Shown here: piece by piece, positions 6,540 to 14,427 of the stretch
How the letters are laid out: each line of letters starts with the position of its first letter
Numbering within the stretch: position 1 is the first letter of the stretch
Source of the DNA: a phage
NCBI GenBank assembly: GCA_026683435.1
Contig: GCA_026683435.1_4866.1
Direction: 5' to 3' (one strand)
DNA: 64,000 bases
Notes under the pieces: model-generated
The model's database searches: none
What the model saw: only the letters and a program-made list of their open reading frames with translations
Told to the model about the DNA's origin: nothing
Position numbers and translations under genes: made by a program

Positions 6540-6806
6540 CTAGTTACGGTCGGAATTAAAGACGTGCCAGGTACTACGCCAGCGGAAGAATCGGGTTATG
6601 AAACCACGTATGTGGTAGCCTGAGAACAACATCCAGATCGTGAGAAAAAGCTGCGCCCATGGAGTGGTGAGTTCCATCAAATGCGCGACTATCGCACCAA
6701 CTATCAACATTACCGTGGAGAATAACAAACTATACATCATCGGAATGTTGTGGCTATAGCGTTTCTCCATCCAGTAGAGAAAATTTATTAAACGTTTCAC
6801 GAACAC
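6540..6806 (-). CDS. small membrane protein (88 aa, two predicted TM helices)
   Basis: Hydrophobic stretches SLLFSTVMLIVGAIVAHL and LFLTIWMLFSGYHI. Confidence 0.45.
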   Translation of the reverse strand: MFVKRLINFLYWMEKRYSHNIPMMYSLLFSTVMLIVGAIVAHLMELTTPWAQLFLTIWMLFSGYHIRGFITRFFRWRSTWHVFNSDRN

Positions 6807-6857: not shown

Positions 6858-7451
6858 TTACGCATCGGCCTCAAAGAACGGCTGGTTTGGTACCACTGCG
6901 TATTCGAGCACGAACAGATGTTCTGGGGCATCTTCTGCTCGCCACAGTTTGTGGCACGTTGCCAGTTTTTCCAGGATGGTCAACCAGCTGAGCTGGCAGA
7001 AAGCACGGTCGCCGAAGAACAGTTTCTGCAGTGCAATCGACACATCCATATACGCCTGTTTGAAGTCGAGTTCTTTATCGTAACCCGCCGACTGTCGCCA
7101 CGTCAGCACGAAACCTGCTTCGGTTTCGTTAATTGCTGGACGTAAACCACAAATCCACATCAGTGCCAGATTAACGTTCCAGTCGAATTCGATACCTTCG
7201 TCTTCGTCATCACCAAACGCCGCGTTTAACGCATCGTAGAAACCGTGGTTCTCTGCGAACCATTCGCCGTACTCAACGTAGACCGGTGCTTCGACAGCTT
7301 CCCCATCGACTTCACCGATAGGACGCTCTACATAGTTCGGGTTGGTTTGAACGTGTTCCGCACCCGCGCGAATTAATTCGTAGACATCTTTGGCGGTGAT
7401 TTGTGCGGCTGTTTTAAGACCTGGATACCAGGGGCGTGTTACGAGTGTCAA
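6858..7451 (-). CDS. hypothetical protein (197 aa)
   Basis: ORF; acidic protein, no motif recognised. Confidence 0.5.
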   Translation of the reverse strand: MTLVTRPWYPGLKTAAQITAKDVYELIRAGAEHVQTNPNYVERPIGEVDGEAVEAPVYVEYGEWFAENHGFYDALNAAFGDDEDEGIEFDWNVNLALMWICGLRPAINETEAGFVLTWRQSAGYDKELDFKQAYMDVSIALQKLFFGDRAFCQLSWLTILEKLATCHKLWRAEDAPEHLFVLEYAVVPNQPFFEADA

Positions 7452-8170
7452 AGCAATGCTCCTTTCATGATAGTGTTATTTGCCAGTAGTGTACCGGCCG
7501 CAGGTGATATTTTGGTGTACAGCGTATCCCAGATTTTCTGAAGCTCAGCGACGCGTTGGTCGCGGTCTTCCTTCGCAAAAGCAAGCTGACGTGTTTCAGC
7601 TTTCGGTGGCGTCATTTTCGCACCGTAGAATGCTGCGTCTTTTCGGTAGCTGTCCATCCAGCGTTTCCCGACCGATGATTTCTTTTTAATCATCGCAACA
7701 GCAGCGCTCTCACCGAAGCGGTAGCCTAATGCAATTTCGGCTGTGCTCGGCTTGCGTTTGAGTTGTTTTGTCAGATGATCCTCGATGTGTTTCATGTAAA
7801 CAGCAGCAAGCTGTACAGCATATTTCGGTTTATTAAGGTCTGCGTTCTTTGGGATGTTAAGTTGTTTCCCATACAGACGTATCATGGAGCGTTTAGTACC
7901 TGTCGTCATTTGGACAACACTACTAGCACTGCTCGATTTATTCTTACCCACGTTTTTATTAAAACGGGATTCGCGGTAAATGGTGGTCGCAAGCATCCCG
8001 GCATGTACACCTTGCTTTTGAGATGCAGAGACGATGAGAGGTTTAATCTCATTGAACTGGTCCTGGATAAGGACAAATTCTTTTTGATGTTTGTTACTGG
8101 TGGACTGGTAAGAAGCGTTGCTGTTGAATGTGGTCACTGCTACCAGAAGAAATAAAATGGTGCGAAACAT
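7448..8170 (-). CDS. secreted protein, possibly lytic transglycosylase (SLT)-like
   Basis: N-terminal signal peptide MFRTILFLLVAVTTFNSNA; segment YRESRFNKNV...SASSVVQMTTGT loosely resembles the SLT ES...S..GA.GLMQ motif. Confidence 0.35.
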   Translation of the reverse strand: MFRTILFLLVAVTTFNSNASYQSTSNKHQKEFVLIQDQFNEIKPLIVSASQKQGVHAGMLATTIYRESRFNKNVGKNKSSSASSVVQMTTGTKRSMIRLYGKQLNIPKNADLNKPKYAVQLAAVYMKHIEDHLTKQLKRKPSTAEIALGYRFGESAAVAMIKKKSSVGKRWMDSYRKDAAFYGAKMTPPKAETRQLAFAKEDRDQRVAELQKIWDTLYTKISPAAGTLLANNTIMKGALL

Positions 8171-10206: not shown

Positions 10207-10695
10207 CTATGCTACCGCAGTCCTTAAAGGATCATCTGCTTCCGCAGGAACCTGCTTCGTAAATTCAAGCCATTGTCCGTCTGTAGAGACGGTCTTGTCA
10301 AAACCGCGAGCGGTAAAGAACGCAATACCAGCTTCCTGGCAAGCGTATATTCCCCCATGCGCACTGGTGAACTTTTCATTCACATCAAGCGCATCAAAAA
10401 TCTGCGTCATCGTTTTGCGACGGCGTGCCATTTCGGACACGAACATCGTACGAATCTTCAGAACCCCAGCGATTACGCGATAGAGACAGTAACCAACAGG
10501 GGTACCCCCTTCCAGAGCAACACAAGCACGGTTCCCCGCCAACAGTTTCTCCAGAGTGAGGTTCGGAATCTCACCTTTTTCGATATGGAGTATGGTACGT
10601 TGGTGGTTCAGAAATTTATAATGCAGCCCCAACAGCTGTTTATTTTGTGCTTCCGTTAAATCTGAAGATGAGGAAAGAATGACAATTTCGGCCAT
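10207..10695 (-). CDS. hypothetical protein (~163 aa)
   Basis: ORF track 10207..10722; likely start MAEIVILSS at 10693-10695. Confidence 0.45.
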   Translation of the reverse strand: MAEIVILSSSSDLTEAQNKQLLGLHYKFLNHQRTILHIEKGEIPNLTLEKLLAGNRACVALEGGTPVGYCLYRVIAGVLKIRTMFVSEMARRRKTMTQIFDALDVNEKFTSAHGGIYACQEAGIAFFTARGFDKTVSTDGQWLEFTKQVPAEADDPLRTAVA

Positions 10696-11348
10696 GAGCT
10701 GAATTCCTAAGTGAGCTTTCACCTGCGATGAAAGCGAGTAACGAAGAATTGCGTTTGTGTTTTCTTAAGTTTACCGGTAAACTTAAGCGGTGTATACCGC
10801 TGCAGGTAAAGACCAGTTCTCTATCGGAACCGTGTCTTTGATCAACAACGTCGTTGAAAACGCTGCGATGCTGAGGTAACCTTCCGTCGCCACATTCGCT
10901 CATGGCGCTTCTGATTACCACGCCAGTCTTCCCCGACTGTACGTGAAACTGCAAAATCATCCGGCCCGCAGACTTCCGCGATGTCTGCTAGAAGGTTCTT
11001 TGAAGACCCTATAGCCATCCCCGCGCTCGAAAGAACGATACGCCGGGTTGGCACGGCCGCCCCTGAACCCACGACCACGGGATCAGAGACTGTTTCACTG
11101 TTACATGATACTTCTCCCACTTCGTAATTACCCTCCTGTTAAAACCAACCTTGCGTCAATGCAAGGATTGCGCCTAGGGCGTATGCGCCTGCTCCTAGTA
11201 CCAGACTACAGATGATACACCCAACCCACTTCACTAAAATAACCATGATGCCAGAAATGCTCCGATTGCACAGATGATAATCGTAATGCCAAGGTCTGTC
11301 CAGGTGGCACCATCATACGCACCTGTTGCAATCATCGCCGCGTTGACA

Positions 11349-11552
11349 CTATTCACGACTGTCATAAGCCGGGTCCCTTAAACGCGGGGGCTTGCTCCAC
11401 AGATTACCGAAGTAAACCCCTTCTAAGAACACCAAAACAACTAAGCCCCAAAAGGCAGGCGTAGCGCGAGACATGAAAATACCGAGTAGCACCACAGTGT
11501 GCATTACCACAACTGCCCAAAACTTTAAACGACCAGGTTTACGTCTTGCCAT
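11349..11552 (-). CDS. small membrane protein
   Basis: Likely start MARRKPGRLKF, followed by hydrophobic WAVVVMHTVVLLGIFM and FWGLVVLVFLEGVYF. Confidence 0.35.
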   Translation of the reverse strand: MARRKPGRLKFWAVVVMHTVVLLGIFMSRATPAFWGLVVLVFLEGVYFGNLWSKPPRLRDPAYDSRE

Positions 11553-11639
11553 GGAATGCCCATCCTTTCGTGCGGATAATCCAACCCCAGGCACCACGAA
11601 TCAACCACAGTGCAATACCGGTTAATACGATACCTTCAA

Positions 11640-11831
11640 TCATGTCCGTTCTCCTATATCTCGCCACTCACAACGCGTGTCGAACAGACGTTCTTTAAGA
11701 GCAGCAGCTAAATAAACGACCGCAGCGATAACCACTACGGTTGCACAAAAGGAGAGGTACAGTACCATCACAACAAACTGAAGGAACTGAAAACCCCACC
11801 AAGCCCATAAGCGCCAACCGTTATGATGCAT
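11640..11831 (-). CDS. small membrane protein (63 aa)
   Basis: W-rich N-terminus then hydrophobic FVVMVLYLSFCATVVVIAAVVYLAAAL; its start overlaps the stop of the SbcC-like gene. Confidence 0.35.
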   Translation of the reverse strand: MHHNGWRLWAWWGFQFLQFVVMVLYLSFCATVVVIAAVVYLAAALKERLFDTRCEWRDIGERT

Positions 11832-14331
11832 ATTTGATTATTACCCCTTCGTTATAAACCGGTGGAAGCGTTACACCTTCTGGCTCCACGACACAGTAGG
11901 TGGCTTCGTTAAGTTTAGAATGAACTTCCGCTTCATGCGAAACGACCAGCAATTGAGAAAACTCTCCCGACAACGCCAACGATTTAATGAAGTTGACCAG
12001 TCGATTTTTGTGTTCTTCATCCATGCCTTCAGAGGGTTCATCCAATAACAAAGGATAGTTTTGTAAACCAAGCGCTTTATACGCTGTTAAACGAAACATC
12101 ATGTTAAAGATAATACGCTGTGCCTTCGAACCTTTCTTCACATCCGGCACCAGTTCTTCATGGTCTTTTAATCGCACCGGGAAAGTATAATCCAAATCCC
12201 CGTCGGTTAGATCGCATGGAATAACCTGCATCGGATATGCCCATACCGTTTCGATATACCGATTCATTAAATCCATGATGCGGGTAATCGCAGCATAAAA
12301 GTAACGACGCAATAATCCCTTTTCGGGTGAGACGGCATTGATAATCAATCTGGCATGATGGTGTTCTTTGAGCAACTCAGCTTGCTCTTTTTCCAATTCC
12401 GCTAAACGTGCAATAGCCCCTTCCATTTGACGAAACCGTTCACGAGCGGAAGTGTACGCATCGAGCTTCGCTTCGCGTCGGTTTAACAACTCGCGAACCA
12501 CGACGTTGTTAACGGAGATGTTCATTTCCGATACCAGATGTTCGTAGCCTTTTTGGAAACGTTCGATTGCTTCTTTGGTTTGTTGCAGTTGGGTGGTTTC
12601 GCGTTCCAGCACATTGGCTTGTCTGCGGTATTCTATCAGTCGACGGTTAGCCCCGTCCAGTTGTGAACGGATATGTTCAATTTTCTGGCTCAGCGCACCA
12701 TCAACGTTACCTACTGCGGCAACAGCCTCTTGCCATTCCCGTTCCGCTGTTGCAAGCTTCTCCGATTGACGCAGATACATCATGGCCGAATCTAGCTCTT
12801 CAGTAAAGGCACGTGCAATGGCACCGTAACGATCCCGCGCCATGGTGAAGATATCCAGCTCCTGCAGTTTACGGAAAAACAAACCGACAACGGGATGGTT
12901 GGAATACGACATGACGATTTCGCGAATCGTACGTAAGCTACGGACGTCCTCTTCAATCTCTTTGCGGTCACGCAAAAGACTATCCATTTCGTCTTTCAGC
13001 TGCTTCTTCCAACCTTCATTATCGTTGATGGCCTTTTCAATTTCAGGTAACGACTTACGAATCCCAGGACGGAAACGGTGGTTACACTGTGGACAATCAA
13101 CTTCTGCAGTTTCTAAGAAGTGTTGACGGTCGTGGTATAAACCGTGTAGCACATTCTCACAACGTTGCAGCTTTTCAGATAGACCCGCAGAGGTTAAATC
13201 CATACCCTGTAAACGCTTCTCTAACGCTCCCAGGCGCTCTGTTGTCTTTAACTGGTCCAGATGCATGGACAACGGTAAATTCCAGTTACAGGCATCGTTT
13301 AACGCGTTCTGAATGCTATCCACATCGATGCGGGTGCCTTCAAACAGAGCCGGGAACATCCAGTTCTGTTGGAACGTTGCCAGTTCCTGTTTTAAGCTGT
13401 CGATTGTTTGTTTTAGACCGGTATGGTTGCGCATCAGATATGCTTGACGCGACTCCTCATCCAGTAGCTGTGACAACTCTTTATTGTACATGTTGCATTC
13501 AGTTTCAGCAGAGGCCGCTTGCTCACGCCAGGCAACCACACGACTTTGAAACTCGTTAATCAGTTCGTCAGAAGGCAGAACGCCATAACGTTCCATAATG
13601 AGTTTTACAGCCGGTTGCAACGAGGCAATGCGTTTCCGGATACTATCAACCGAAACGGCGTTATCTAAACCGGGTCTCGCTTCAATGGTGCGGTTTAGTT
13701 CCTGAAGCTCAACGTCCAGTTCTTTCAAACGAACTTCTAAACGTGCACGATCTTCTTCATCGTCCACCACGCGCATTTTTGCCTCACCGATTTTACGGCC
13801 GGTGTGCTCAATGGCCCCACTTAAACTGGAAGCGAGTTTACGCAGACGACGATAACAACCAACGACGTACGTCAGATCAGATTCTGACATTAACGTAAAC
13901 CATTTACGACGAACTTCAGTGGTAGCGTCTGTTAATAAGGTTTCACCGTTAATTAACTCTTTGATTTCTTTGGTGATCCCGGTTAACTGTTCCACCATGG
14001 AGTTGTAAACTTTGGCGTTTACCGAGTCTACGACGGAGACACCTTTAGTGATGTTGAAGATACTACAAGACAGAGAAGAGCCACGACGCAGGACTTCAAA
14101 CTTAAGACGGTCGTCCCCAACTAACGCGTAGTTAGTGTAGGAACCACCTTCACGGAATTCTGATTTTGCTGGAGCTAAGGGGAGAAAAACAGATAGGAGG
14201 CTTGTTTTACCGCAGCCGTTGCCACCGAGGATGATGGTAACGGTTGACTTAAGGGTGAAATCAAACGTTTCGATTTCATGTAACCCCATGCCGGTAAATC
14301 CTTTCAAAATGATACGTTCGACCTTGAGCAT
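11821..14331 (-). CDS. SbcC/Rad50-like recombination ATPase
   Basis: N-terminal Walker A GGNGCGKTS; long central coiled-coil with CPQC zinc hook near its middle; C-terminal Walker B LLLDEPSEG and H-loop VVSHEA. Confidence 0.75.
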   Translation of the reverse strand: MLKVERIILKGFTGMGLHEIETFDFTLKSTVTIILGGNGCGKTSLLSVFLPLAPAKSEFREGGSYTNYALVGDDRLKFEVLRRGSSLSCSIFNITKGVSVVDSVNAKVYNSMVEQLTGITKEIKELINGETLLTDATTEVRRKWFTLMSESDLTYVVGCYRRLRKLASSLSGAIEHTGRKIGEAKMRVVDDEEDRARLEVRLKELDVELQELNRTIEARPGLDNAVSVDSIRKRIASLQPAVKLIMERYGVLPSDELINEFQSRVVAWREQAASAETECNMYNKELSQLLDEESRQAYLMRNHTGLKQTIDSLKQELATFQQNWMFPALFEGTRIDVDSIQNALNDACNWNLPLSMHLDQLKTTERLGALEKRLQGMDLTSAGLSEKLQRCENVLHGLYHDRQHFLETAEVDCPQCNHRFRPGIRKSLPEIEKAINDNEGWKKQLKDEMDSLLRDRKEIEEDVRSLRTIREIVMSYSNHPVVGLFFRKLQELDIFTMARDRYGAIARAFTEELDSAMMYLRQSEKLATAEREWQEAVAAVGNVDGALSQKIEHIRSQLDGANRRLIEYRRQANVLERETTQLQQTKEAIERFQKGYEHLVSEMNISVNNVVVRELLNRREAKLDAYTSARERFRQMEGAIARLAELEKEQAELLKEHHHARLIINAVSPEKGLLRRYFYAAITRIMDLMNRYIETVWAYPMQVIPCDLTDGDLDYTFPVRLKDHEELVPDVKKGSKAQRIIFNMMFRLTAYKALGLQNYPLLLDEPSEGMDEEHKNRLVNFIKSLALSGEFSQLLVVSHEAEVHSKLNEATYCVVEPEGVTLPPVYNEGVIIKYAS

Positions 14332-14379: not shown

Positions 14380-14416
14380 TGCGTAAAAAAGAAGAAATGG
14401 AACCCCGAAGGGTTCC
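14380..14416 (-). terminator. rho-independent terminator
   Basis: Stem GGAACCC / GGGTTCC with loop CGAA; minus strand continues ATTTCTTCTTTTTTAC. Confidence 0.6.
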
Positions 14417-14427
14417 AGAGAGGAGAG

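What the first reader, a model, noticed from the sequence alone, without database searches (positions are those of the whole stretch)
11141..11831. String of tiny hydrophobic ORFs downstream of the SbcC-like gene
Besides the listed 63- and 67-82-aa ORFs, two unlisted ORFs below the 60-aa track threshold encode MTVVNSVNAAMIATGAYDGATWTDLGITIIICAIGAFLASWLF (11225..11365) and MVILVKWVGCIICSLVLGAGAYALGAILALTQGWF (11141..11246). They overlap each other's ends and are each essentially a single transmembrane helix, a pattern seen for phage host-takeover or immunity micro-proteins, but starts are uncertain.
Basis: seen in the sequence. Interest (0 to 1): 0.4.

Follow-up and report, generated by a model that had tools for sequence, protein, structure and literature searches.

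The report
Small membrane-protein genes after phage SbcC
The tiny hydrophobic reading frames are real, conserved genes: five small membrane proteins plus one small basic protein, made together with the essential SbcC-like gene of an SPN3US-type giant phage. Several are missing from reference annotations, and their function is still unknown.

Summary
A sixth, non-hydrophobic basic ORF F (10842..11120, 92 aa) follows. The window is an SPN3US-like jumbo phage.

All frames stay open in relatives. A–D show third-codon-position variation and low dN/dS. E keeps an invariant C-terminal peptide (GA[IV]xALTQGWF) across four genera while its synonymous sites vary. A, B, E and F are the constant core of a cassette found only in the Seoulvirus/Erskinevirus/Machinavirus/Wellingtonvirus clade; C and D are each missing in some members.

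No family has a known function. The published idea that gp187 (= A) anchors SbcCD to the membrane is not supported as a general rule: 3 of 16 SbcC lineages have a hydrophobic ORF after SbcC, against a 9.5% background. A holin role is weakened because a better-placed 2-TM ORF sits beside the exported endolysin.

Most likely this is a lineage-specific accessory module acting in the host inner membrane. It is an ordinary kind of phage gene, with modest interest.

The parts
11821..14331 (-). SbcC/SMC-like ATPase (SPN3US gp186 homologue). It is the upstream gene of the operon, and its stop codon region overlaps the start of A by 11 nt.
   Evidence: ORF list. Sub-threshold Pfam SMC_N/AAA hits. Annotated as an SMC-domain or SbcC-like protein in relatives. 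Essential in SPN3US by amber mutant (PMC5105663).
11640..11831 (-). ORF A, 63 aa (SPN3US gp187 homologue). It has a roughly 40-residue uncharged hydrophobic stretch, probably a 2-helix hairpin, and a charged C-tail (KERLFDTRCEWRDIGERT).
   Evidence: phrog_16515, E = 1e-28. dN/dS 0.30 against SPAsTU. Variable sites by codon position among close relatives 4/1/16. Positional homologues in Asesino, Huxley, Kwan, Caitlin and pEa_SNUABM_29.
11539..11643 (-). ORF B, 34 aa: one TM helix plus a basic C-tail (RTKGWAFHGKT). ATGA overlap with A's stop codon, and an AGGAG SD 7 nt upstream. Not annotated in SPN3US or EC001.
   Evidence: phrog_13448, E = 6e-9. 85% aa identity and dN/dS 0.06 against SPAsTU. 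Codon-position variable sites 1/1/6. 34-46-aa homologues in all four genera.
11349..11552 (-). ORF C, 67 aa (SPN3US gp188 homologue). It has a basic N-terminus, two TM helices and a conserved acidic residue (E44) in helix 2, with the tail LRDPAYDxRE.
   Evidence: phrog_18173, E = 4e-40. dN/dS 0.17. Codon-position variable sites 4/1/13. The family has only 17 clusters among 5.8e9 proteins, all from this phage clade. The alignment shows W35, G49, P61 and R66 invariant and E44 about 90% conserved. AlphaFold2 gives a helical hairpin, H7-27 and H32-52, mean pLDDT 70. Absent from pEa_SNUABM_29.
11234..11365 (-). ORF D, 43 aa (SPN3US gp189 homologue). A polar, acidic 24-residue N-terminal part is followed by a C-terminal TM helix that ends at the C-terminus (…SWLF).
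   Evidence: phrog_29196, E = 8e-33. 70% aa identity to SPAsTU with pN 0.18 and pS 0.76. Codon-position variable sites 5/2/12. 63% identical copy in Erwinia phage pEa_SNUABM_29. Absent from Asesino, Huxley, Kwan and Caitlin.
11139..11246 (-). ORF E, 35 aa: a single TM helix with Gly/Ala-rich packing motifs and an invariant C-terminal ALTQGWF. The start may alternatively be GTG at 11234. Unannotated in SPN3US and many other records.
   Evidence: 34-39-aa homologues at the same position in SPAsTU, pEa_SNUABM_29, Asesino, Kwan, Caitlin and Huxley. Synonymous codons vary while the peptide is fixed. No PHROG, Pfam or NCBIfam match. phmmer against 1.84e9 representatives finds only itself.
10842..11120 (-). 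ORF F, 92 aa, GTG start 10 nt after AGGAGGG. Not hydrophobic. Its conserved basic C-terminal half is EDWRGNQKRHERMWRRKVTSASQRFQRRC. It is mostly unannotated, or replaced by spurious calls in other frames.
   Evidence: The frame is open in all relatives, while the alternative frame annotated in EC001 carries stop codons in most of them. phrog_15402, E = 9e-12. Homologues in Huxley gp201, Kwan gp214, Caitlin gp200, Asesino and pEa_SNUABM_29. Called as 92 aa in SRA assemblies. Weak point: no codon periodicity among close relatives, 6/8/8.
10696..10841 (-). Spacer of 146 nt between F and the GNAT acetyltransferase gene, containing stable hairpins that include a perfect 24-nt palindrome (CTTAAGTTTACCGGTAAACTTAAG). 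It probably marks the 3' boundary of the SbcC-A-F unit.
   Evidence: RNA fold -44.1 kcal/mol, z = -3.2. No Rfam family. All gene junctions upstream of it are overlaps or gaps of 18 nt or less.

Best explanation
Shown:
- The locus is the 3' end of the SbcC-like operon of an SPN3US-type jumbo phage.
- It encodes six small proteins from start/stop-overlapping, and so probably translationally coupled, genes. There are five hydrophobic proteins: A, a probable 2-helix hairpin; B, 1 helix; C, a 2-helix hairpin; D, a C-terminal helix; E, 1 helix. There is also one basic soluble protein, F.
- These are genuine genes under purifying selection.
- A, B, E and F form a constant core conserved across four genera that infect Enterobacterales. 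C and D are gained or lost.

Inferred:
- The five hydrophobic products insert into the host inner membrane.
- By the positive-inside rule, A and C would be N-in/C-in hairpins, B would be N-out/C-in, and E would be N-in/C-out with its invariant TQGWF end at the periplasmic face.
- They probably associate through their small-residue (Gly/Ala) helix faces.
- They act as a lineage-specific accessory module that changes the state of the host envelope during infection. The most plausible roles are exclusion of superinfecting phage, or modulation of membrane energisation and lysis timing.
- They are probably not an obligatory partner of SbcCD.
For: Genes are real:
- All frames are intact in 11 close genomes and in SPAsTU (about 70% nt identity).
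- dN/dS against SPAsTU is 0.06 for B, 0.17 for C and 0.30 for A. For D, pN is 0.18 and pS 0.76.
- Polymorphic sites by codon position over A-F are 23/13/58, p = 2e-8.
- PHROG families match A, B, C, D and F.
- E's peptide motif is fixed while its synonymous sites vary.

Membrane character:
- A, C, D and E lie in the top 2% of small ORFs in the window for hydrophobicity.
- AlphaFold2 models C as a helical hairpin.

Operon and coupling:
- Junctions are SbcC/A overlap 11 nt, A/B ATGA, B/C overlap 14 nt, C/D overlap 17 nt, D/E overlap 13 nt, and E-F gap 18 nt with a strong SD.
- The same pattern of overlaps is seen in SPAsTU, Asesino and Huxley.

Accessory and lineage-specific nature:
- The families are confined to one clade.
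- C is absent in pEa_SNUABM_29 and D is absent in the Erwinia genera.
- Derbicusvirus has non-homologous small TM ORFs in the same place.
- Neighbouring genes are accessory types: a GNAT acetyltransferase and a macro-domain protein.
- A hydrophobic ORF after SbcC is not enriched across lineages: 3 of 16 against a 9.5% background, p = 0.19.

Precedent: T4 imm, a small superinfection-immunity gene annotated as mediating a membrane change, also sits between DNA-replication genes.
Against: - There is no direct evidence of expression, membrane insertion, interaction or phenotype. The SPN3US infection proteome paper could not be read.
- B is about as conserved as SbcC itself (85% against 82% identity to SPAsTU). 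That level of conservation is unusual for a fast-evolving host-interaction gene.
- A's start overlaps the SbcC stop, or lies within 3 nt of it, in every genus of the clade that I examined. This could reflect a functional link and not just genome compaction.
- The specific roles proposed (exclusion, lysis timing) rest on analogy only.
- Topologies were derived with simple hydrophobicity scales and the positive-inside rule, not with a trained predictor.
Confidence: 0.55

Rival explanations
1. Membrane anchor or platform for the phage SbcCD (gp186/gp27) nuclease. A, possibly with B-E, tethers the essential SbcC-like ATPase to the inner membrane, as was proposed for T4 gp47.1 with gp46/gp47.
For: - This was suggested in print for gp187 (= A) (PMC5105663).
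- A's start overlaps the SbcC stop, or lies within 3 nt of it, in window, SPAsTU, Asesino, Huxley, Kwan and Caitlin.
- T4 47.1 is a 46-aa hydrophobic protein whose gene overlaps gene 47.
- Non-homologous small TM ORFs follow SbcC in PhiPA3, Moabite and Derbicus/Phobos.
Against: - Across 16 SbcC lineages (55 loci), only 3 have a hydrophobic small ORF right after SbcC, against 9.5% after control long genes (p = 0.19).
- There is no sequence similarity to T4 47.1.
- The SbcC gene is conserved across Chimalliviridae, but the cassette is confined to one clade.
- C and D are dispensable in some members.
- From established knowledge: these phages replicate their DNA inside a protein-shelled nucleus, so a membrane-tethered recombination nuclease would be cut off from its substrate.
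Confidence: 0.15
2. Lysis-control proteins. One or more of A-E would be the unidentified holin, pinholin or antiholin that controls the exported SLT endolysin encoded 3 kb downstream.
For: - A and C have class-II-holin-like architecture: 63-67 aa, two TM helices and a charged C-tail.
- E has glycine-zipper-like motifs.
- In the papers I read, no holin is reported for this phage group.
- The putative endolysin at 7448..8170 (Pfam SLT) has a signal- or SAR-like N-terminus. From established knowledge, that type of endolysin is usually controlled by membrane depolarisation.
- The endolysin and the cassette lie in the same co-directional gene block.
Against: - There is no match to any holin family in Pfam, NCBIfam or PHROGs.
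- Seven genes separate the cassette from the endolysin.
- A conserved, mostly unannotated 88-aa 2-TM ORF with a basic tail (6540..6806) lies two genes from the endolysin and is the better positional candidate.
- Coupling to a replication/recombination gene implies early or middle expression, not late expression (inference).
Confidence: 0.15
3. Not genes. On this view the ORFs are chance open frames in a T-rich stretch, or frameshifted remnants of one decayed multi-pass membrane-protein gene.
For: - Gene callers disagree widely: related GenBank records annotate 0 to 5 of the five ORFs.
- E shows no clear codon periodicity on its own: 14/10/15 against SPAsTU and 3/0/3 among close relatives.
- The five ORFs together total seven predicted helices.
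Against: - Each ORF keeps its own start, its length and its position across four genera at 25-60% protein identity.
- There is strong third-position bias and low dN/dS for A-D.
- Synonymous sites vary under a fixed E peptide.
- No larger homologue exists among 5.8e9 proteins.
- A-F show no mutual similarity.
Confidence: 0.04

Closest known systems
T4 gp47.1 (46-aa predicted membrane protein encoded with genes 47/46, the T4 SbcD/SbcC homologues)
   Same: It is a small, hydrophobic protein whose gene overlaps an SbcCD-type gene in one operon. The analogy was drawn in the literature for SPN3US gp187.
   Different: There is no sequence similarity. In T4 it lies upstream of the SbcD-like gene, whereas here the small genes lie downstream of the SbcC-like gene and SbcD (gp27) is encoded elsewhere. 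Here there are five membrane proteins plus a basic protein, not one. The T4 anchor role is itself only a proposal.
T4 Imm / Sp type superinfection-exclusion membrane proteins
   Same: They are small phage-encoded membrane proteins embedded among DNA-metabolism genes; imm lies between genes 42 and 43. They act on the host envelope and are lineage-restricted.
   Different: There is no homology. No exclusion phenotype has been tested here. The present genes are much smaller (34-67 aa) and form a multi-gene cassette.
Class II holins / pinholins (for example phage 21 S68; from my own knowledge)
   Same: A and C are 63-67 aa with two TM helices and charged tails. An exported SLT endolysin is encoded nearby.
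   Different: There are no holin-family matches. The genes are not adjacent to the endolysin, and another 2-TM ORF is closer to it.
PHROG families phrog_16515, 13448, 18173, 29196 and 15402 (all 'unknown function')
   Same: A, B, C, D and F match these families with E-values from 6e-9 to 4e-40.
   Different: The families carry no function. E belongs to no PHROG. The cassette as a conserved unit is not described in anything I found.

Membership tests
PHROG unknown-function families (16515, 13448, 18173, 29196, 15402) | Significant profile-HMM match over most of the protein | tested here: met
   A 1.2e-28, B 5.8e-9, C 3.6e-40, D 7.7e-33, F 8.6e-12. E has no match: its best hit has E = 0.11.
Holin / pinholin | Small protein with at least one TM helix and a charged cytoplasmic tail | tested here: met
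   A and C have two hydrophobic segments plus charged C-tails. AlphaFold2 models C as a helical hairpin.
Holin / pinholin | Match to a described holin family | tested here: not met
   No hit in Pfam, NCBIfam or PHROGs lysis categories.
Holin / pinholin | Gene adjacent to the endolysin or spanin genes (usual but not universal) | tested here: not met
   The SLT endolysin at 7448..8170 is about 3 kb and seven genes away. A different 2-TM ORF (6540..6806) is two genes from it.
Holin / pinholin | Timed membrane permeabilisation or depolarisation on expression | not testable with these tools
   This needs expression and membrane-potential or lysis assays.
T4 gp47.1-like SbcCD-associated membrane protein | Small hydrophobic protein whose gene is coupled to an SbcC/SbcD gene | tested here: met
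   A overlaps the SbcC stop by 11 nt. T4 47.1 overlaps gene 47.
T4 gp47.1-like SbcCD-associated membrane protein | Sequence relationship to T4 gp47.1 | tested here: not met
   BLASTP of T4 47.1 against A-F gives a best E-value of 0.5 over 7 residues.
T4 gp47.1-like SbcCD-associated membrane protein | Association with SbcC recurring across phage lineages | tested here: not met
   3 of 16 lineage clusters, against a 9.5% control rate, p = 0.19.
T4 gp47.1-like SbcCD-associated membrane protein | Physical interaction with, or membrane recruitment of, SbcCD | not testable with these tools
   This needs two-hybrid, co-purification or localisation experiments. No localisation data were found in the papers searched.
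Superinfection-exclusion membrane proteins (T4 Imm/Sp type) | Homology to a described exclusion protein | tested here: not met
   No family match in Pfam, PHROGs or NCBIfam.
Superinfection-exclusion membrane proteins (T4 Imm/Sp type) | Blocks DNA entry of a secondary phage when expressed | not testable with these tools
   This needs plating or efficiency-of-plating assays on cells expressing A-E.

The most novel reading that the evidence does not exclude
The A/B/E/F core, with C and D as optional subunits, assembles into a hetero-oligomeric inner-membrane complex with a dedicated role in the nucleus-forming life cycle of this clade. Two candidate roles are the missing holin/antiholin system that gates the exported SLT endolysin, and a membrane platform that works with the essential SbcC-like ATPase and the basic protein F on DNA at the membrane, for example host-DNA degradation or handling of the incoming genome. 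Either would be a new multi-subunit micro-protein machine with no described homologue.
Probability: 0.12. Interest if true: 0.6.

Novelty: new member of a known kind. Interest (0 to 1): 0.3.

Why it matters
Practical value:
- It corrects annotation in a model giant phage. B, E and F are absent from the SPN3US RefSeq record, and two annotated ORFs in other frames (EC001 ACEC001_1897 and SPN3US gp076) are probably spurious.
- gp186 was scored as essential from an amber mutant. Six downstream genes appear to be translationally coupled to it, so polar effects should be considered when that phenotype is interpreted.

Biological value:
- It defines a compact, conserved set of micro-proteins (34-67 aa) that can be tested directly for superinfection exclusion, lysis timing or SbcCD association in a genetically tractable nucleus-forming phage.
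- Neither a holin nor a role for membrane proteins was reported for this phage group in the papers I read.

Clusters of small membrane proteins of unknown function are common in large lytic phages, so the finding is not surprising in kind.

Tried and rejected
1. Paralogy among the small ORFs (tandem duplication). All-against-all BLASTP and an hhalign comparison of the D and E profiles show only a 7-residue similarity (probability 4%). Rejected.
2. Decayed single gene. No larger homologue exists, and ORF boundaries are conserved across genera. Rejected.
3. RNA element instead of gene E. A hairpin plus T-run lies on E's last codons, but synonymous sites vary under a fixed peptide and there is no Rfam hit. 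The protein-level constraint dominates, though a secondary RNA role is not excluded.
4. General SbcC-TM association. This looked promising with 9 hand-picked lineages, but it was not significant with 55 loci in 16 lineages.
5. Searches that gave little:
 - tblastn of E finds only near-identical copies.
 - The search for related loci with the E profile returned 2 loci.
 - phmmer of E against 1.84e9 proteins finds only itself, plus low-complexity hits in long proteins.
 - The search for homologous proteins refuses queries shorter than 40 aa.
 - Broad SbcC alignments were too diverse for the search for related loci.
 - The 128-aa HExxH protein inserted in Kwan has no Pfam match.
6. Literature:
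 - The SPN3US infection-proteome paper (PMC6384053) is not held.
 - The toxicity-screen paper concerns an unrelated phage.
 - No SbcC localisation data were found.

Full report
**What the window is.** The stretch is 99.4% identical to Escherichia phage vB_EcoM_EC001 and 94-98% identical to SPN3US and about 30 other Seoulvirus genomes. These are giant phages related to phiKZ. All genes at the locus run on the minus strand. The large gene at 11821..14331 is the SbcC/SMC-like ATPase, the homologue of SPN3US gp186. It was shown to be essential by an amber mutant, and its SbcD partner (gp27) is encoded elsewhere (PMC5105663).

**Checking the observation.**
The coordinates need small corrections: D is 11234..11365 and E is 11139..11246.
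- With the 63-aa ORF A (11640..11831) and the 67-aa ORF C (ATG at 11552), they form a head-to-tail string.
Its ATG overlaps A's TGA as ATGA and is preceded by AGGAG.
- The junctions are SbcC/A overlap 11 nt, A/B overlap 4 nt, B/C overlap 14 nt, C/D overlap 17 nt and D/E overlap 13 nt.
- After E there is an 18-nt gap with a strong SD (AGGAGGG) and a GTG that opens a sixth ORF, F (10842..11120, 92 aa). F is not hydrophobic and has a very basic C-terminal half.
- A 146-nt hairpin-rich spacer then precedes the GNAT acetyltransferase gene.
- The hydrophobic clustering is not chance. Among 506 six-frame ORFs of 30-90 aa in the window, only 4% reach a Kyte-Doolittle maximum of 2.0 or more. A, E, D and C rank 2nd, 4th, 5th and 9th.

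**Are they genes?** GenBank records disagree widely and call from none to all five of these ORFs. The comparative evidence is nevertheless clear.
- All six frames are intact in 11 close genomes and in SPAsTU, whose DNA is only about 70% identical here. The alternative frame annotated in EC001 (10640..10960) is broken by stop codons in most relatives.
- Against SPAsTU, dN/dS is 0.06 for B, 0.17 for C and 0.30 for A. D has pN 0.18 against a saturated pS of 0.76.
- Among close relatives, variable sites in the non-overlapping parts fall 4/1/16 (A), 1/1/6 (B), 4/1/13 (C) and 5/2/12 (D) by codon position. Over A-F the totals are 23/13/58, p = 2e-8.
- E is too short and too invariant for such tests, but it is the most widely recognisable member. 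A 34-39-aa ORF ending in GA[IV]xALTQGWF-stop (Huxley: GAVYSLCMGLF) sits at the same position in SPAsTU, pEa_SNUABM_29, Asesino, Kwan/Wellington, Caitlin and Huxley, and is unannotated in several of them.
- A terminator-like hairpin coincides with E's last codons. However, the synonymous positions of those codons vary freely between genera while the peptide is fixed, so the constraint is on the protein.
- PHROGs contains unnamed families that match A, B, C, D and F. E has none. Pfam and NCBIfam have nothing.

**Anatomy of the products.**
- A has a roughly 40-residue uncharged stretch, probably a hairpin, followed by a charged tail.
- B is one helix with a basic tail, KGWAFxGKT.
- C has a basic N-terminus and two helices, with a conserved acidic residue (E44) in the second and a conserved LRDPAYDxRE tail. 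AlphaFold2 with an 11-sequence alignment gives a helical hairpin (H7-27 and H32-52, pLDDT 70).
- D is a polar, acidic 24-residue head on a C-terminal helix.
- E is a single Gly/Ala-rich helix.
- By the positive-inside rule (established knowledge, applied by hand), A and C would be N-in/C-in, B would be N-out/C-in and E would be N-in/C-out.
- The six proteins are unrelated to one another.

**Distribution.**
- The cassette lies between the SbcC-like gene and the acetyltransferase in Seoulvirus, Erskinevirus (Asesino), Machinavirus (Huxley, Caitlin) and Wellingtonvirus (Kwan).
- A, B, E and F are always present. D is confined to Seoulvirus. C is missing from pEa_SNUABM_29. Kwan has extra insertions.
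- Derbicusvirus (Derbicus, Phobos) has different small hydrophobic ORFs in the same place.
- Deep searches find the C family in only 17 clusters among 5.8 billion proteins, all from this clade. A, E and F are found only in close relatives.

**What it does: the three ideas tested.**

(i) An SbcCD membrane anchor.
- This was suggested for gp187 by analogy with T4 gp47.1.
- T4 47.1 is indeed a 46-aa hydrophobic protein whose gene overlaps gene 47, but it shares no similarity with A-E.
- A first look at nine lineages seemed to show recurrent small TM ORFs after SbcC.
- With 55 loci in 16 lineages, only 3 lineages have one, against a 9.5% rate after other long genes in the same loci (p = 0.19).
- Together with the narrow distribution of the cassette and the dispensability of C and D, this argues against an obligatory partnership.
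- Compartmentalised replication in these phages (established knowledge) also makes a membrane-tethered recombination nuclease awkward.

(ii) Holin or antiholin.
- A and C have class-II-holin-like architecture, and the papers I read report no holin for this group.
- A 240-aa SLT-domain endolysin with a signal- or SAR-like N-terminus lies 3 kb downstream on the same strand.
- However, there is no holin-family match.
- A conserved, mostly unannotated 88-aa two-helix ORF with a basic tail (6540..6806) lies two genes from that endolysin and is the better positional candidate.

- This fits the clade restriction, the gain and loss of members, the replacement by non-homologous small ORFs in Derbicusvirus, and the accessory character of the neighbouring genes (GNAT, macro domain).
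- T4 imm offers a precedent, since it is embedded among replication genes.
- I adopt this as the best explanation, but the specific activity is inferred and not shown.
- The high conservation of B, and the invariant coupling of A to SbcC, are reasons to keep rival (i) alive.

**Verdict.** The feature is real and more extensive than reported. It is an ordinary kind of phage element, a cluster of small membrane-protein genes of unknown function, and one member had already been noted in the literature. The new points are:
- the definition of a six-gene conserved cassette;
- three members that reference annotations miss (B, E and F);
- two probably spurious annotated ORFs;
- a quantitative argument against the published anchor hypothesis.

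Interest is modest, at 0.3.

Noticed in passing
window 6540..6806 (-): An 88-aa ORF with two hydrophobic segments and a basic C-tail lies two genes downstream of the putative endolysin. It is unannotated in EC001 and about 20 other records, but is conserved at about 40% aa identity in SPAsTU and pEa_SNUABM_29. It has a weak, sub-threshold Pfam DUF4231 hit. It is a plausible holin candidate.
   Followed up: partly
window 7448..8170 (-): A 240-aa SLT-domain 'putative endolysin' whose N-terminus (MFRTILFLLVAVTTFNSNA|SYQ) looks like a Sec signal peptide or a SAR anchor. That would imply an exported endolysin needing membrane-level control.
   Followed up: partly
window 10640..10960 (-) and 10783..10893 (-): Two ORFs annotated in relatives, EC001 ACEC001_1897 and SPN3US gp076/SEGD1_195, are in frames other than F. 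The first carries stop codons in most relatives. The second is conserved only where it overlaps F's conserved C-terminus. Both are probably spurious calls that mask the real gene F.
   Followed up: yes
window 11386..11390 (-), poly-C tract in the tail of ORF C: EC001 and Lh1B carry one extra C here. This shifts C's tail to ...KPPAFKGPGL* and creates an ATGA overlap with D. The window, SPN3US and the others keep the frame that encodes the conserved LRDPAYDSRE tail. The extra C is either a sequencing error at a homopolymer or a real frameshift variant.
   Followed up: partly
window 11149..11166 (-): The hairpin CCTTGC-ATTGAC-GCAAGG followed by TTGGTTTT lies on the last codons of E, just before F's SD. 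A weaker hairpin persists in several genera. It might attenuate read-through into F or stabilise the mRNA.
   Followed up: partly
window 10696..10841 (-): The spacer between F and the acetyltransferase gene folds stably (z = -3.2). It contains a GC hairpin (GCGGTATACACCGC) and a perfect 24-nt palindrome, CTTAAGTTTACCGGTAAACTTAAG. The palindrome is imperfect in most relatives. There is no Rfam match.
   Followed up: partly
window 14398..14417 (-): A strong terminator-like hairpin (TGGAACCCTTCGGGGTTCCA followed by a T-run) lies about 70 nt upstream of the SbcC start. It suggests that the SbcC-A-F unit begins with its own promoter in that gap.
   Followed up: no
L006 4092..4478 (Erwinia phage Kwan gp209): A 128-aa protein with an HEAVH (HExxH-like) motif is inserted between the A and B homologues in Kwan/Wellington only. 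It has no Pfam match.
   Followed up: partly
L027 1490..2330 (Erwinia phage pEa_SNUABM_29): This Seoulvirus member has A, B, D, E and F but no C. Only B and D are annotated there, plus an ORF in a different frame that overlaps F.
   Followed up: yes
SPFM1, 5-10, 12, 14, 15 and 20 records (LR5359xx): These records match the locus only as 23-27 short pieces, with broken small ORFs. This suggests many indel errors in those assemblies, not real variation.
   Followed up: no
window 11822..11831 / ORF A codon 4: The window has Asn at residue 4 of A, where all ten close relatives examined have Lys. This is one of the few differences from EC001 in this stretch.
   Followed up: no
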